From Escherichia coli (GTDB taxonomy: Bacteria; Pseudomonadota; Gammaproteobacteria; Enterobacterales; Enterobacteriaceae), in the NCBI RefSeq assembly GCF_022846255.1, contig NZ_AP025682.1: a stretch of DNA of 64,000 nucleotides; one strand, 5' to 3'. Shown here piece after piece: positions 49,601 through 55,600 of this stretch (positions are counted from its first letter, which is position 1; each line of letters begins with the position of its first letter). A program made the position numbers.

Positions 49601-52600
49601 ACTTTTTGCGCCGGTACGTAGCTGCCGATATACGCCATCAGCGCAATCAACGCGGTCTGGCGCATATAGGTACTTTTACCGCCCATGTTCGGACCGGTAA
49701 TGATCAACATGCGACGCTGCGGCGACAGGTTTAGCGGGTTAGCGATAAACGGCTCATTCAGTACTTGTTCAACTACCGGATGGCGACCTTCGGTAATGCG
49801 AATGCCAGGTTTATCAATAAAGGTCGGGCAGGTGTAGTTCAGGGTATAGGCCCGCTCCGCCAGGTTCACCAGCACGTCGAGTTCCGCCAGCGCGCTCGCG
49901 CTCTGTTGCAACGCTTCCAGATGCGGCAACAGCAGGTCGAACAGCTCTTCATAAAGTTGTTTTTCCAGAGCCAGTGCTTTGCCTTTTGAGGTGAGAACTT
50001 TATCTTCGTACTCTTTCAGCTCCGGAATAATGTAACGCTCGGCGTTTTTCAGCGTCTGGCGGCGCATGTAGTTGATTGGTGCCAGATGGCTTTGCCCACG
50101 GCTGATTTGAATGTAGTAGCCGTGCACAGCATTAAAGCCAACTTTTAACGTGTCCAGGCCGGTACGTTCACGCTCGCGGACTTCCAGACGTTCCAGATAA
50201 TCGGTCGCGCCGTCGGCCAGCGCACGCCATTCATCCAGTTCTTCGTTATAACCAGTCGCAATAACACCACCATCGCGTACCAGCACCGGCGGCGTGTCGA
50301 TGATTGCTCGCTCCAGCAGGTCGCGCAGTTCGGCAAACTCGCCCATCTTCTCACGCAGTGCTTGTACCGGGGCGCTATCGACACCTTCCAGTTGCGCGCG
50401 CAGTTCTGGAAGTTGCTGGAAGGCATGACGCATACGGGCCAGATCGCGCGGGCGAGCGGTACGCAACGCCAGACGCGCCAGAATACGTTCCAGGTCGCCC
50501 ACCTGACGCAGTACCGGCTGTAACTCGGCGGTGAAATCCTGCAATGCGCCAATAGTTTGCTGGCGCTCAAGCAACACGCGGGTATCGCGCACTGGCATAT
50601 GCAGCCAGCGTTTCAGCATACGACTACCCATCGGCGTTACAGTGCAGTCGAGTACGGAAGCCAGCGTATTTTCCGCACCGCCGGCCAGGTTCTGAGTAAT
50701 TTCCAGGTTACGACGCGTCGCGGCATCCATAATGATGCTGTCCTGCTGACGTTCCATAGTGATAGAACGAATATGCGGCAGGGTCGTGCGTTGGGTATCT
50801 TTCGCATACTGCAACAGACAACCGGCAGCACAAAGTCCGCGTGGTGCGTTCTCCACACCAAAACCGACCAGATCTCGGGTGCCAAATTGCAGGTTCAATT
50901 GCTGGCGAGCGGTGTCGATTTCAAACTCCCACAGCGGGCGACGACGCAGGCCGCGGCGACCTTCAATCAGCGACATCTCGGCGAAATCTTCCGCATACAG
51001 TAATTCCGCTGGATTCGTACGTTGCAGTTCTGCCGCCATCGTTTCGCGGTCCGCCGGTTCGCTCAGGCGAAAACGACCGGAACTGATATCCAGCGTTGCG
51101 TAGCCGAAACCTTTACTGTCCTGCCAGATAGCCGCCAGCAGGTTGTCCTGACGTTCCTGCAACAGCGCTTCATCGCTGATGGTGCCCGGCGTAACGATAC
51201 GGACAACTTTGCGCTCGACCGGCCCTTTGCTGGTCGCCGGATCGCCAATCTGTTCACAAATAGCAACCGATTCGCCCTGGTTCACCAGTTTGGCGAGGTA
51301 GTTTTCCACCGCATGGTAGGGAATCCCCGCCATCGGGATTGGCTCTCCCGCTGAAGCACCGCGTTTGGTCAGTGAAATATCCAGCAGTTGCGACGCCCGT
51401 TTTGCGTCGTCATAAAACAGTTCATAAAAGTCGCCCATCCGGTAAAACAGCAGGATCTCGGGATGCTGGGCTTTCAGCTTGAGATACTGCTGCATCATGG
51501 GCGTATGGGCGTCGAAATTTTCTATTGTACTCATGGGGTTAAGTCCGGCTCCCTGATGTTAAATGTAGTGTGATGGTTTTTATTTTCGTTGTAATCACAT
51601 AAGGCGCACATGATACCGGAGTTAATCATTTCAGGGGAAGACGCGAAAGGTGAGTTCTTGATGTCGGTTCCGCGAAAAATGCTGCTTTGCAGCTTTTGCG
51701 TGATGACGATGAAACAAGATCGACAAATTCGTCGGTTGAAGAAACCTCCTCCTTCAGAGACATAGTCCCCTTTAAAATTAAGTTGTAATATAAATGCACC
51801 TTAAGAGTATGGAGGCAGCATGTCCGGCAAGCGTATCTCTCGTGAAAAACTGACGATTAAAAAAATGATCGATCTTTATCAAGCGAAATGCCCGCAGGCG
51901 TCAGCAGAGCCGGAGCATTACGAGGCGTTGTTTGCTTACGCGCAAAAGCGGCTGGATAAATGTGTGTTCGGCGAAGAGAAACCAGCCTGTAAGCAGTGTC
52001 CGGTGCACTGTTACCAGCCTGCAAAGCGTGAAGAGATGAAACAGATTATGCGTTGGGCCGGGCCGAGAATGCTGTGGCGTCATCCGATCTTAACCGTGCG
52101 TCATCTCATCGATGACAAGCGTCCGGTGCCGGAGTTGCCAGAAAAATATCGTCCAAAGAAATAAATCTGCCGGAGAGCCATACTCTCCGGCAAATACGGC
52201 GCTTACGCTTTGGTGGCAATCAGGATGGCTGATGCTTTGATCAATGCAATAACGCGCGAGCCAGTGGTGAGTTTCATTTCATCCTGACTTTCATTTGTTA
52301 CCACTGCCACAATTTCAAAACCCGCATCCGTTTTGATATGGACAGTGGCGTTCACTGCGCCTTCGGTGATTGTCGACACGCTGCCAGCAAACTGGTTGCG
52401 AGCAGAGAATTTCAGTCCACAGTCTTCCGTTGCCAGCGTTACCCACGGGGCTTTAATCAGGGCAATCGCTTCTTTCCCTTTCGCCAGACCCAGCGCTTGC
52501 TGGCTGCTGTGAGTCACAATTGCCACCAGCTTTGCACCACCTGCCAGCGTCAGTTCTACTTCGTCATTCACCGCGCCCATTGCTACTGCGCTAACTGTTC

Positions 52601-55600
52601 CGGTTAATTGATTTCTTGCTGAAACTGCCATACTGCCTCCTTTCATTGAATGTTGATCGAGTATAACCACATCTGTTAAATCAATGCCGATTTATCAATT
52701 CCCAGTCGCTTCATTCGTGACAGCAGAGTCGTGCGTTTCAGCCCCAGACGTTGCGCAGCGCCTTTAGGCCCGGCAACCACGCCGTTTGTTTCTTTCAGCA
52801 CGCGAACAATCAACTGATATTCATCTTCGCCCTCCTGGGCGACAACCGTTGCGGCAGGCGGCGTTTCAGGTTCTGGTAAAGCAATATCTGGCAATGACAG
52901 CTGCAGCACGTTGCCGCGTGTTAGCAATACCGCGCGCTCAATGACGTTTTCCAGCTCACGCACGTTGCCCGGCCATTCCATGTTGCTCAGGATGCGCAGC
53001 GTCTCGGCAGGAATGCTGTCGATATTGCGCCCCAGACGACGGGCAATTTTGAAGGTAAAGGCTTTCGCCAGCAGCGGAATATCTTCCGGACGCTCGCGTA
53101 GTGGCGGCAGGTGGATCGGGAATACGTTCAGACGGTAATAGAGATCGCTACGGAACTCTCGGTCGGCGACCATTTTTTTCAGATCGCGGTTAGTCGCGGC
53201 AATTAAACGTACGTCCGTCTGAATGATTTTGTTGCTGCCGAGACGTTCAAACTCCTGTTCCTGTAATACACGCAGCAACTTCGGCTGTAACTCCAGCGGC
53301 ATATCGCCCACTTCATCGAGGAATAGTGAGCTTTTATCCGCCAGTTCAAAACGACCAATGCGCTGAGCGCTGGCACCGGTAAAAGCCCCACGCTCATGAC
53401 CAAATAGATCGCTTTCCAGCAATCCGGCAGGCATCGCCGCGCAGTTCATTTTGACCATACGGCGATTATTACGCCCACTGAGATTATGGATCGCGCGGGC
53501 AATCAGCTCTTTACCTGTACCAGTTTCACCGAGGATCAGAACGGTACTGTCACTTTGCGCCACCATTTCCACTTGTTTAAGTACGCTGTACATGGCTTCG
53601 CTGCGGCCAATAATCTCGCCAAATTCACTATCAACATTGTTGAGCTGCTCGGTCAGGGCGAGGTTTTCATCAACCAGCCGTTCTTTCAGACGATGAATTT
53701 CCTGATAGGCGAGGGCGTTATCGACAGCGATTGCCACACGTTCGGCAATCTGGCGCAGTAAGCTCAGATTGGTAGTGGTAAAGACTTTCTCTTCGCATTG
53801 CGCCAGTTTTAGCACGCCCAGCATGGTGTCGCCAGACATCAGCGGTAACAGGCACAAGGTTTGAATCTGGTTGCCCCAGGTGTTGAACAACATGCGTTCA
53901 TAGGGGGCTAAATCGTCCCGCTCGTGGAGATTAATCAACAGCATCTCTTTACTTTTGAAGACGCGTTCGGTGAGGGTTCCGGCTTCATCGACTTCGCTCT
54001 GTTCGTGAGCGGGATGCTGTTTATCAAGATAGTGAGTGGAGTAGATGTTGAGTTTGTTCTTACGGTGGCTGCGTAAGACGATGCTGATATCGTCAATGTC
54101 GAAGTAGTAGTGGATTTCTTTGGCGACTTCGCTGACCAGTTCGTCCATATCCAGGCGGGAAAGCACCGCGTTAGTGATGGCGACCAGGATGCGGAAGTTA
54201 TCGCGTTCCCGGCATAACAACTCATAGTCGACATTGTTAACGACGCGGCTCTGGATTTGTTCGGTGACGACAGAAACGATCTGCGTAAATGTTTGCAGAC
54301 GATTGAACTCTTTTTCGCTCCAGGGGCGATCGTCATAACGAATAAATTCACAGCCACCAAAAATATGCCCTTCCGCCGCCAGTGGCATCAGGCAATAGTG
54401 ACCAAATTTGGGGTATAGCCCACCTGTGGCCAGCTGCGGCCAGGTTTCACAAAATTCTTCGTAACTGCAATGCAGCGTATCAGGGCGCGACAAAATGCTG
54501 CGTACCGGACCGTGTGCCAGAACAGTTTCGTCTTCATATTTAATGGGGGTGTCTTTTTCACGCGATGCGTAATAAGACGCACGTTGAGTCTGCGCTTGCC
54601 ACAACACAATCGCCGCGTTGTCGGCGAGCGCAGAACGCTTTACCAGTTGCGAAAGAGCCTCACACAGCGAGGCCAGATCGGGCTGCTGCAATAGTGTCCG
54701 AGTGATGTCGAACAACCCTTGCTGTCCGAGATCACTCATCGGTGTATATGACATTTTGTTCTTCCAGGAAAGCACCGCAAAGCGGTGCAAAAGGTCATTG
54801 ACTAACTATAGGAGATTTAGAATTTTATTAGCATATACGCGGAAGCGGTTCGGCGTGCGGTAGATCGAGGGTTCGTTTCACGCCATACAGACCGGCAAGA
54901 CGAACACCTTTACGTTCTACTACTTCGCCAATCAGCGCCGCATCTTTTCCCAATGGATGGGAATGTAACGCCGCCAGCACTTGCTCTGCTGCGTTGCGTT
55001 CAACGGCGATCACCAGTTTGCCTTCGTTGGCAAAGTTAAGGGCGTCCAGTCCCAGCAGTTCGCAAACGCCGCGCACAGCAGGTTTAACCGGCAGTGCCGC
55101 TTCTGAAAGTTCAATACCACAACCGCAGGCTGCCGCGAACTCATGAACCACCGCGTTTACACCACCACGGGTGGCATCACGCAGCGCTTTCACGCCGGGA
55201 ATGTCACGCAGCGTCTGAATAAGCGGCGTCAGCACCGCACAGTCGCTGACCAGTTCGCCATCCAGCCCCAGCTGCTCACGCAGGTTAAGGATAGTCGCCC
55301 CGTGGTCGCCGAGTGTACCGCTAACCAGCAATACATCGCCTGCGGTTAGCGTCTGTGCGCCCCAGTGAATATTCGCCGGAATTGCGCCCATGCCAGCGGT
55401 GTTGATAAACAGTTTATCTGCCGCGCCGCGCTGCACCACTTTAGTGTCGCCAGTAACGATGGCAATGCCTGCCGCGCGGGCGGTTTCTGCCATGCTGGTC
55501 ACAACGGCTTTCAGCGTCTCCATCGGTAATCCTTCTTCAAGGATAAATCCACAGGAGAGATAACGCGGAATAGCGCCACTGACCGCTACGTCGTTCGCGG

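What the first reader, a model, noticed from the sequence alone, without database searches (positions are those of the whole stretch)
52203..52675. Tandem Mop-domain molybdate-binding protein encoded directly downstream of fhlA
A 142-aa ORF with two SARNQxxGxV Mop/TOBE repeats and a strong RBS lies 45 bp after the fhlA stop on the same strand, between fhlA and ygbA. From memory K-12 has no gene there. The formate hydrogenlyase system depends on a molybdoenzyme and on molybdate-responsive regulation, so a cytoplasmic molybdate-binding or buffering protein co-transcribed with fhlA is a plausible accessory to this regulon.
Basis: partly seen in the sequence, partly recalled or inferred. Interest (0 to 1): 0.55.

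Follow-up and report, generated by a model that had tools for sequence, protein, structure and literature searches.

The report
ModG-type molybdate-binding gene after fhlA
This is a real, well-conserved gene for a small cytoplasmic molybdate-binding protein of the ModG type, placed just after the formate hydrogenlyase activator gene fhlA; K-12 lost it but about a third of E. coli keep it, and public records already annotate it, so it is ordinary but has not been studied experimentally.

Summary
A 142-aa ORF lies on the minus strand at 52203-52631. It starts 44 nt after the fhlA stop, has an AGGAGG ribosome-binding site, and ends at a strong terminator hairpin shared with the convergent gene ygbA.

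The protein has two TOBE/Mop domains. It is 49% identical, without gaps, to Azotobacter vinelandii ModG. Its predicted structure superposes on ModG at TM 0.95. Both domains keep all the oxyanion-binding residues.

K-12, BL21 and O157 lack the gene. Of 5426 complete E. coli genomes, 1889 carry it and 3505 carry the K-12-type junction. The fhlA-mop pair is also found in E. albertii, E. fergusonii, Citrobacter, Klebsiella/Raoultella, Kluyvera, Pluralibacter, Kosakonia and others (36 of 49 related loci). Every ortholog found is exactly 142 aa, and dN/dS is 0.02-0.12. The gene is therefore ancestral and was deleted in the K-12 lineage.

It is already annotated. RefSeq calls it "TOBE domain-containing protein". 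[quoted passage not shown]

The most likely function is a trimeric molybdate buffer or store, expressed as the last gene of the hyp-fhlA transcription unit, possibly also from its own promoter. Co-transcription and any role in formate hydrogenlyase are inferred, not shown. I found no functional study.

The parts
52203..52631 (-). Coding sequence of a 142-aa ModG-type di-Mop molbindin (stop codon included). Mop domain 1 is about residues 1-68 and domain 2 about residues 73-140.
   Evidence: ORF. Two TOBE domains. TIGR00638 Mop, 142 bits. 49% identity without gaps to A. vinelandii ModG. AlphaFold model pLDDT 96, TM 0.95 and rmsd 1.3 A to 1H9J. dN/dS 0.02-0.12. Annotated in RefSeq as WP_000301062.1.
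52636..52641 (-). Shine-Dalgarno sequence AGGAGG, 4 nt upstream of the ATG.
   Evidence: Read from the sequence. The block GAAAGGAGGCAGTATG is nearly invariant across genera.
52660..52665 (-). TATACT hexamer 29-34 nt upstream of the ATG. It is a candidate -10 element of a separate promoter for mop (inferred).
   Evidence: The block GGcTATA is conserved in Escherichia, Citrobacter, Pseudocitrobacter and Pluralibacter, and in the displaced Salmonella copy, while the surrounding spacer varies. No matching -35 element was found, and the consensus sigma-70 scan found nothing.
52632..52675 (-). 44-nt spacer between fhlA and mop, with no terminator.
   Evidence: No terminator-like site. The fold is no better than shuffled sequence, z = -0.46.
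52155..52195 (-). Intrinsic terminator hairpin (GCCGGAGAG-TATGG-CTCTCCGGC) plus a U-rich tail, starting 7 nt after the mop stop and shared with the convergent ygbA.
   Evidence: Terminator scan: 14-pair stem. Minimum free energy -28.5 kcal/mol, z = -4.6, 0 of 200 shuffles fold as well.
52676..54754 (-). fhlA, the sigma-54 activator of formate hydrogenlyase (692 aa), immediately upstream on the same strand.
   Evidence: ORF. 100% identical to the annotated FhlA of CFT073.
51820..52164 (+). ygbA (114 aa), convergent with mop.
   Evidence: ORF. RefSeq annotation of identical DNA.

Best explanation
The ORF encodes a cytoplasmic molbindin orthologous to Azotobacter vinelandii ModG. It consists of two Mop (TOBE type 1) domains in one chain. 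By homology it should assemble as a trimer, a pseudo-hexamer of Mop domains, and bind up to eight molybdate or tungstate oxyanions: two on the threefold axis (through backbone amides of A20-V21-N22 and A92-V93-N94) and six at domain interfaces (S4, R6, T40, K60, A61 and S76, R78, T112, K132, A133).

It most likely acts as an intracellular molybdate buffer or store, not as an enzyme or a DNA-binding regulator. Because it lies 44 nt after fhlA with no terminator in between and a strong terminator directly after it, it is most likely the last gene of the hypABCDE-fhlA transcription unit. It would then rise together with the formate regulon, at the time the molybdo-selenoenzyme FdhH is made. A conserved -10-like hexamer in the spacer may add a second, separate promoter.

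The gene is ancestral in Enterobacteriaceae. One deletion of about 465 bp removed it in the E. coli lineage that includes K-12, BL21 and O157.

Shown here: domain identity, fold, conservation of the binding residues, purifying selection, synteny, and the presence/absence polymorphism. Inferred: oligomeric state, ligand binding, co-transcription, and the physiological link to formate hydrogenlyase.
For: Identity and fold:
- Two TOBE domains and the Mop model at 142 bits.
- The best PDB match is ModG 1H9J, E = 5e-33 over the full length, at 49% identity with no gaps over 138 aa.
- The AlphaFold model (pLDDT 96) matches ModG with TM 0.95 and rmsd 1.3 A, ahead of the ModE di-Mop domain at TM 0.89.

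Binding residues:
- The positions that bind oxyanion in the Tub structure (Ser4, Arg6, Ala20-Val21-Asn22, Ser40, Lys60-Ala61; PMC11980592) align without gaps to both domains.
- They are invariant or nearly invariant in 24 aligned sequences, whereas the second Mop domain of ModE has lost them.
- ModG is described as a trimer that binds eight molybdates (PMC11980592).

A functional gene:
- Every ortholog found is 142 aa, apart from one of 143, and dN/dS is 0.02-0.12.

Operon context:
- No terminator or stable structure in the spacer.
- A strong terminator follows the stop codon.
- fhlA lies immediately upstream in 36 of 49 related loci from many genera, and also in the E. fergusonii cluster.
- In Phytobacter the gene follows hypE directly.

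Ancestral state and loss:
- E. albertii, a cryptic Escherichia lineage and E. fergusonii all carry it at the same site.
- E. coli genomes divide into 1889 with the gene and 3505 with a single K-12-type junction.
Against: There is no experimental evidence for expression, oligomeric state or ligand binding of the enterobacterial protein, and no functional paper in the searched library.

K-12 has a fully working formate hydrogenlyase without this gene, so it cannot be essential for that system.

In Salmonella, Pantoea, Serratia, Cedecea and Edwardsiella, close orthologs sit in unrelated neighbourhoods. The protein therefore works without fhlA nearby, and its role may be general molybdenum homeostasis.

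The conserved TATACT hexamer, which the displaced Salmonella copy keeps, suggests the gene may depend mainly on its own promoter and not on read-through.

No ModE operator is present, unlike modG of A. vinelandii, which is reported to be ModE-controlled (title of reference 41 in PMC11980592).
Confidence: 0.85

Rival explanations
1. The protein is a general molybdate store or buffer that serves all molybdoenzymes and is transcribed from its own promoter in the fhlA-mop spacer. Its position after fhlA would then be a historical accident with no functional tie to formate hydrogenlyase.
For: A conserved GGcTATA(C/A)(T/A) block at a fixed distance from the ATG is kept even in the Salmonella copy, which has unrelated upstream DNA. 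Orthologs in Pantoea, Serratia, Cedecea and Edwardsiella lie in unrelated contexts. K-12 formate hydrogenlyase works without it (established knowledge).
Against: The adjacency to fhlA or hypE is kept across many genera even though the DNA on the other side of the gene is repeatedly rearranged: sitABCD-like transporter genes are inserted between mop and ygbA in the Klebsiella group. No -35 element and no full sigma-70 consensus promoter was found. There is no terminator between fhlA and mop, so read-through is expected whatever else happens.
Confidence: 0.3
2. The protein is a regulatory sensor and not a store. When loaded with molybdate it contacts FhlA, ModE or the ModC transporter subunit, and so couples formate-regulon expression or molybdate uptake to the molybdenum supply.
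For: The tight and conserved pairing with a transcription activator gene. TOBE domains act as regulatory modules in ModE and ModC. Transcription of hyc in K-12 is known to depend on molybdate (established knowledge: Rosentel 1995, Self 1999; not re-read here).
Against: The protein has no DNA-binding or other effector domain; its 142 aa are entirely two Mop domains. Unlike ModE, both of its domains keep the full set of binding residues, the high-capacity ModG pattern. K-12 shows molybdate-dependent hyc control without it. There is no evidence of any partner contact.
Confidence: 0.1
3. The protein is mainly a tungstate binder (a 'TudG'). It would sequester tungstate, which would otherwise poison molybdoenzymes such as FdhH.
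For: Mop and Tub proteins bind both oxyanions, and the binding residues are the same as in the tungstate-storing Tub. PMC11980592 defines a TudG/ModG class in gut microbes.
Against: The sequence gives no means of telling the two ligands apart. The nearest characterised relative, at 49% identity, is the molybdate protein ModG. The paper assigns tungsten use by the presence of TupA or WOR enzymes in the genome, which was not examined here. E. coli is not known to use tungsten enzymes (own knowledge).
Confidence: 0.05
4. The ORF is a decaying remnant, or a chance ORF, in a variable intergenic region.
For: It is absent from 65% of complete E. coli genomes, and it lies in the known polymorphic fhlA-mutS-rpoS region.
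Against: dN/dS is 0.02-0.12. The length is constant at 142 aa across genera, the binding residues are invariant, and the ribosome-binding site is conserved.
Confidence: 0.01

Closest known systems
ModG of Azotobacter vinelandii (PDB 1H9J, 1H9K, 1H9M), the di-Mop cytoplasmic molbindin
   Same: Same architecture: two Mop domains in one chain of about 142 aa and nothing else. 49% identity without gaps. The predicted fold superposes at TM 0.95 and rmsd 1.3 A. Both domains keep the SARN, GAVN, T and KA binding positions.
   Different: The genomic context differs. In A. vinelandii modG belongs to a molybdate-transport (mod) locus and is ModE-controlled (own knowledge, plus the title of reference 41 in PMC11980592). 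Here the gene follows fhlA at the end of the hyp operon, no ModE box is present, and the host does not fix nitrogen. Trimer formation and binding of eight molybdates have not been tested for this protein.
C-terminal di-Mop domain of E. coli ModE (PDB 1H9R, 1H9S, 1O7L, 1B9M)
   Same: Tandem Mop fold, 36% identity, TM 0.89. The first Mop domain shares the SARN and KAPWV motifs.
   Different: ModE has an N-terminal DNA-binding domain that is absent here. The second Mop domain of ModE has lost the binding residues (NADN, GAEQ, FNAD), whereas here both domains keep them. The NCBIfam ModE model scores 88 bits against a cut-off of 369, so this is not a ModE.
Single-domain Mop/Tub storage proteins (Clostridium pasteurianum MopII 1GUG, Sporomusa ovata Mop 1FR3, Eubacterium limosum Tub 9BEB)
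   Same: Each half of the protein aligns without gaps to these proteins of about 70 aa, at up to 40% identity, with the same binding residues. The expected function, oxyanion storage, is the same.
   Different: Those proteins are single-domain chains that form hexamers. Here two domains are fused, so a trimer would give the equivalent assembly.
c3292 of E. coli CFT073 / RefSeq WP_000301062.1
   Same: This is the same gene. The protein is 100% identical and the DNA 99.3% identical. It is annotated 'TOBE domain-containing protein' or 'putative molybdenum-pterin-binding protein'. The 465-bp difference in fhlA-mutS amplicon size between CFT073 and MG1655 is published (PMC4209514).
   Different: Nothing differs in sequence. 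The publication uses the gene only as a PCR marker and gives no functional analysis.

Membership tests
Molbindin / Mop (TOBE type 1, Pfam PF03459, TIGR00638) | Sequence match to the Mop/TOBE profile above the curated threshold | tested here: met
   PF03459 matches twice, 1.6e-17 and 6.2e-16. TIGR00638 scores 142 bits against a cut-off of 55, in two stretches.
Molbindin / Mop (TOBE type 1, Pfam PF03459, TIGR00638) | Oxyanion-binding residues present: Ser and Arg of SARN, the backbone triplet A-V-N, Ser/Thr at position 40, and Lys-Ala at positions 60-61 | tested here: met
   S4, R6, A20-V21-N22, T40, K60-A61 in domain 1 and S76, R78, A92-V93-N94, T112, K132-A133 in domain 2. They align to the Tub residues listed in PMC11980592 and are conserved among orthologs.
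Molbindin / Mop (TOBE type 1, Pfam PF03459, TIGR00638) | Binds molybdate or tungstate | not testable with these tools
   Needs ITC or metal analysis of purified protein.
ModG subtype (di-Mop storage protein) | Exactly two Mop domains in one chain, with no DNA-binding or ATPase domain | tested here: met
   The 142 aa are fully covered by two TOBE domains. Full-length gapless alignment to ModG.
ModG subtype (di-Mop storage protein) | Fold matches the solved ModG structure | tested here: met
   AlphaFold model, pLDDT 96. Foldseek top hits are 1H9J, 1H9K and 1H9M, with TM 0.94-0.95 and rmsd 1.3-1.4 A.
ModG subtype (di-Mop storage protein) | Trimer that binds eight oxyanions | not testable with these tools
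   Only a monomer was modelled. The stoichiometry is taken from the description of ModG in PMC11980592.
ModG subtype (di-Mop storage protein) | ModE-dependent, molybdate-responsive expression, as reported for A. vinelandii modG | tested here: not met
   No match to the E. coli ModE consensus CGNTATATA-N6-TATATANCG at up to 3 mismatches anywhere in the window. This is a property of regulation in one organism, not a defining feature of the protein family.
ModE (molybdate-dependent transcription regulator) | N-terminal winged-helix DNA-binding domain plus a di-Mop domain, scoring above the NF007957 cut-off | tested here: not met
   Only profile positions 124-261 of 263 match, at 88 bits against a cut-off of 369. 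There is no N-terminal domain.
ModC / WtpC ABC ATPase | ABC ATPase domain followed by a C-terminal TOBE domain | tested here: not met
   Only the C-terminal roughly 65 residues of those profiles match, at 47-49 bits against cut-offs of 285-440.
hypABCDE-fhlA operon (membership as its last gene) | Same strand, short gap, no terminator before the gene and a terminator after it | tested here: met
   44-nt gap. No terminator-like site or stable fold in the gap. A hairpin of -28.5 kcal/mol follows the stop.
hypABCDE-fhlA operon (membership as its last gene) | A transcript that spans fhlA and mop | not testable with these tools
   Needs RT-PCR or RNA-seq from a carrier strain.

The most novel reading that the evidence does not exclude
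The ModG-type protein is a dedicated part of the formate hydrogenlyase regulon in most Enterobacteriaceae. It would be made with FhlA and would hold or hand over molybdate for the FdhH cofactor, or feed molybdenum status back to FhlA. If so, the textbook K-12 picture of molybdate control of hyc and fdhF, built in a strain that has deleted this gene, describes a derived and incomplete system.
Probability: 0.2. Interest if true: 0.5.

Novelty: already known. Interest (0 to 1): 0.25.

Why it matters
The gene belongs to a well-characterised family and is already annotated, so it adds no new kind of biology.

Its modest value is that the laboratory model for formate hydrogenlyase and molybdate regulation, K-12, has lost a gene that most Enterobacteriaceae, and about 35% of sequenced E. 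coli including the B2 uropathogen CFT073, keep directly attached to fhlA. If the protein buffers molybdate for FdhH synthesis, carrier strains may cope better with molybdate scarcity or with tungstate during fermentative growth in the gut or urinary tract. Results from K-12 on molybdate-dependent hyc/fdhF control may then not transfer fully to those strains. The idea is cheap to test with a deletion in CFT073 and complementation of K-12.

Tried and rejected
- **ModE operator upstream of mop.** The spacer sequence GGTTATACT-N-AACAT looked at first like half of a ModE box. The E. coli consensus CGNTATATA-N6-TATATANCG has no match in the window at up to 3 mismatches, and no second half-site is conserved in other genera. 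Rejected.
- **Moco riboswitch or other known RNA near the gene.** An Rfam scan of the whole window at gathering threshold found only a sok RNA at 28537-28694.
- **Canonical sigma-70 promoter.** The scan found none in 51700-53400. Only a -10-like hexamer without a -35 element remains as a lead.
- **Sigma-S -10 consensus.** I tried to confirm it from the paper library. The search returned nothing that states the consensus (searches failed on syntax). The sigma-S resemblance therefore rests on my memory only.
- **Anti-phage defence role.** No PADLOC family matched.
- **Functional literature on the E. coli gene.** Searches for c3292, WP_000301062, molybdenum-pterin-binding protein, ModG, TOBE and fhlA found only the 2014 PCR-marker paper.
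- **The 155-aa GTG-start version of the ORF.** Rejected in favour of the ATG at 52631, because of the conserved ribosome-binding site, the RefSeq annotation and the constant 142-aa length of orthologs.
- **Plus-strand ORFs inside the interval** (52333-52512 and 52338-52607). Treated as antisense by-products of the conserved minus-strand gene and not examined further.

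
Full report
**1. The observation**

The minus strand of the window carries an ORF with its ATG at 52631 and its TAA stop at 52203-52205 (142 aa, MAVSARNQLTGTV...). The mechanical ORF list extends it upstream to a GTG at 52670 (155 aa). Three things fix the ATG as the start. AGGAGG lies 4 nt upstream of it (52636-52641). RefSeq annotates a 142-aa product on identical DNA. All 53 orthologs I extracted are 142 aa, apart from one of 143.

The fhlA reading frame (692 aa, 52676-54754, minus strand) ends 44 nt upstream. ygbA (51820-52164, plus strand) converges from the other side, and mutS follows.

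**2. What the protein is**

Pfam finds two TOBE domains (PF03459; residues 4-66 at 1.6e-17 and residues 76-137 at 6.2e-16). The NCBIfam Mop domain model TIGR00638 scores 142 bits against a cut-off of 55. The full-length models for ModE, ModC and WtpC fall far below their cut-offs and match only through their TOBE parts.

[quoted passage not shown] A pairwise alignment gives 49% identity over 138 residues with no gap. An AlphaFold model built on 24 homologs has mean pLDDT 96. Its best structural matches are the three ModG entries (TM 0.94-0.95, rmsd 1.3-1.4 A), followed by the di-Mop domain of E. coli ModE (TM about 0.89).

The 2025 structure paper on the tungstate store Tub lists the ligand contacts (PMC11980592). 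The type-1 site uses backbone amides of Ala20-Val21-Asn22. The type-2 site uses Ser4, Arg6, Lys60 and Ala61 of one chain and Ser40 of the neighbouring chain. Tub aligns without gaps to each half of the present protein. The equivalents are S4, R6, A20-V21-N22, T40, K60-A61 in domain 1 and S76, R78, A92-V93-N94, T112, K132-A133 in domain 2. All of these are invariant or nearly invariant among 24 aligned sequences that include ModG. The second Mop domain of ModE has lost them.

The protein is therefore a ModG-type molbindin in which both domains can bind ligand. The same paper describes ModG as a trimer that binds eight molybdates and takes part in molybdenum homeostasis. I did not test the oligomeric state or binding.

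**3. Is it a working gene?**

Against orthologs from E. albertii, Citrobacter, Klebsiella, Kluyvera, Kosakonia, Salmonella, Cedecea and Edwardsiella, dN/dS is 0.02-0.12, with synonymous sites near or at saturation. The length never varies. This excludes a chance ORF or a pseudogene.

**4. Distribution**

- **Carriers.** Of 5426 complete E. coli genomes, 1889 contain the whole region. They include CFT073, and the region is annotated "TOBE domain-containing protein" or "molybdopterin-binding protein".
- **Non-carriers.** 3505 genomes contain the K-12-type junction, in which the fhlA stop is followed directly by a terminator hairpin and the end of ygbA. They include K-12, BL21, O157:H7 and O111.
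- **A two-allele polymorphism.** The two classes add up to 5394 of the 5396 genomes that match at all. There is one junction type on each side.
- **Outside E. coli.** A scan of one genome per species found 49 related loci. In 36 of them fhlA lies immediately upstream, with gaps of about 30-110 nt. These include E. albertii, a cryptic Escherichia lineage, nine Citrobacter, Pseudocitrobacter, Raoultella, Klebsiella, Kluyvera, Pluralibacter, Yokenella, Lelliottia, Kosakonia and several Enterobacter.
- **Further cases of the same context.** The E. fergusonii-labelled cluster has the same hypD-hypE-fhlA-mop-ygbA order. In Phytobacter the gene follows hypE directly and fhlA is absent.
- **Other contexts.** In Salmonella, Pantoea, Serratia, Cedecea and Edwardsiella, close orthologs sit in unrelated neighbourhoods.

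The gene and its position after fhlA are thus ancestral for Escherichia and for much of the Enterobacteriaceae. The K-12 state is a deletion of about 465 bp, running from just after the fhlA stop to about the mop stop.

**5. Is it already known?**

Yes. [quoted passage not shown] A 2014 study of the fhlA-mutS-rpoS-nlpD polymorphic region lists fhlA-mutS amplicons of 1673 bp for CFT073 and 1208 bp for MG1655 and EDL933, and it uses a c3292 primer (PMC4209514).

That paper reports the long amplicon only in its "pattern III" strains. The window has the same CFT073-like arrangement, with a flavodoxin-family gene next to rpoS.

I found no paper that studies the protein's function, and none that notes the conserved pairing with fhlA. 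The library does not cover most subscription journals, so this absence is weak evidence.

**6. How it is probably expressed**

The 44-nt spacer has no terminator-like element, and it folds no better than shuffled sequence (z = -0.46). Seven nucleotides after the stop codon comes a 14-pair GC-rich hairpin followed by a U-rich tract (-28.5 kcal/mol, z = -4.6). It sits between the convergent mop and ygbA genes. In K-12 a related hairpin follows fhlA directly. Transcripts that reach the end of fhlA should therefore continue through mop.

From established knowledge (not re-read here), fhlA is transcribed from the formate- and FhlA-dependent sigma-54 promoter in front of hypA, from an FNR-dependent promoter inside hypA, and from a weak promoter of its own. 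Mop would share that control. This is inference.

A second possibility emerged from comparing spacers. A block GGcTATA(C/A)(T/A) lies at a fixed distance from the ATG: -34 in most genera and -46 in Kluyvera, which has a 12-nt insertion. It is conserved while the rest of the spacer diverges, and it is retained in the Salmonella copy, whose upstream DNA is unrelated. In the window it reads TGGTTATACT (52660-52669).

It looks like a -10 element. The form CTATACT resembles the -10 preferred by sigma-S, but that comparison is from memory and I could not confirm it in the library. No -35 element accompanies it, and the consensus promoter scan reports nothing.

It is not a ModE operator. The published E. 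coli consensus (PMC545781) has no match in the window at up to three mismatches. No Moco riboswitch or other Rfam family lies near the gene.

**7. Most likely mechanism and its rivals**

*Best explanation, confidence about 0.85 for the molecular identity and lower for the physiological context.* The protein is a trimeric, high-capacity cytoplasmic binder of molybdate (and probably tungstate). It buffers or stores the oxyanion. It is made as the last gene of the hyp-fhlA unit, so its level rises when the molybdo-selenoenzyme FdhH and hydrogenase 3 are being built.

*Rivals:*
- A general store with its own promoter, linked to fhlA only by history (0.3). This overlaps with the main explanation on the molecular function.
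- A sensor that contacts FhlA, ModE or ModC (0.1).
- A protein that sequesters tungstate (0.05).
- A decaying remnant (refuted by the conservation data).

K-12 runs formate hydrogenlyase without the gene, so any role must be conditional. The most plausible condition is molybdate scarcity or tungstate excess.

**8. Verdict**

The finding is real and correctly interpreted, but ordinary. It is an annotated, uncharacterised ortholog of a structurally known protein, and its presence/absence polymorphism has been published. The only aspect I could not find described is how widely the fhlA-mop pairing is conserved, together with the point that the model strain for formate hydrogenlyase regulation lacks the gene. 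Interest 0.25. Novelty class: already known.

Noticed in passing
window 28537-28694 (+): Full-length match to the Rfam sok antitoxin RNA (RF01794, 112 bits against a gathering score of 59). This indicates a chromosomal hok/sok-type toxin-antitoxin locus.
   Followed up: no
window 52660-52669 (-): TGGTTATACT in the fhlA-mop spacer. The block GGcTATA is conserved across genera at a fixed distance from the ATG and is also kept in the displaced Salmonella copy. It may be a -10 element of a separate promoter, sigma-S-like by memory only.
   Followed up: partly
window 52155-52195 compared with L002 3050-3085 (K-12) and L016 (C. amalonaticus): The terminator hairpin differs between the two E. coli alleles by compensatory changes: GCCGGAGAG/CTCTCCGGC here and GCCGGACAG/CTGTCCGGC in K-12. 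The K-12 form resembles the hairpin that follows mop in C. amalonaticus. ygbA is 114 aa here and 117 aa in K-12. The deletion allele is therefore not a simple excision from the allele seen in this window.
   Followed up: partly
L003 and L004 (Salmonella enterica contigs), gene at 6001-6429 and 4025-4453: The Salmonella ortholog (89% identical) is not next to fhlA. It lies in an accessory region, next to an IS21 IstB fragment in L004, and about 3 kb from genes with Oxidored_molyb and Ni_hydr_CYTB domains on the opposite strand.
   Followed up: no
L005, L006, L022, L024, L027 (Raoultella, Klebsiella, Enterobacter sp. 10-1): Four ABC-transporter genes of the sitABCD type (ZnuA, ABC_tran and two ABC-3 domains) are inserted between mop and ygbA. 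So the DNA on the other side of mop is rearranged, while the fhlA-mop junction is kept.
   Followed up: no
L041, L046, L053 (Phytobacter, Kosakonia sp. S29): The gene follows hypE directly, and no fhlA was detected in the locus. The hyp-mop linkage survives the loss of fhlA.
   Followed up: partly
window 39031-40023 (+) and 40199-40750 (-): rpoS is intact in the window, although the otherwise identical strain SK1144 has it annotated as frameshifted. It is flanked by a flavodoxin-family gene, the CFT073-like 'pattern III' arrangement of the mutS-rpoS polymorphic region described by Ewers et al. 2014.
   Followed up: partly
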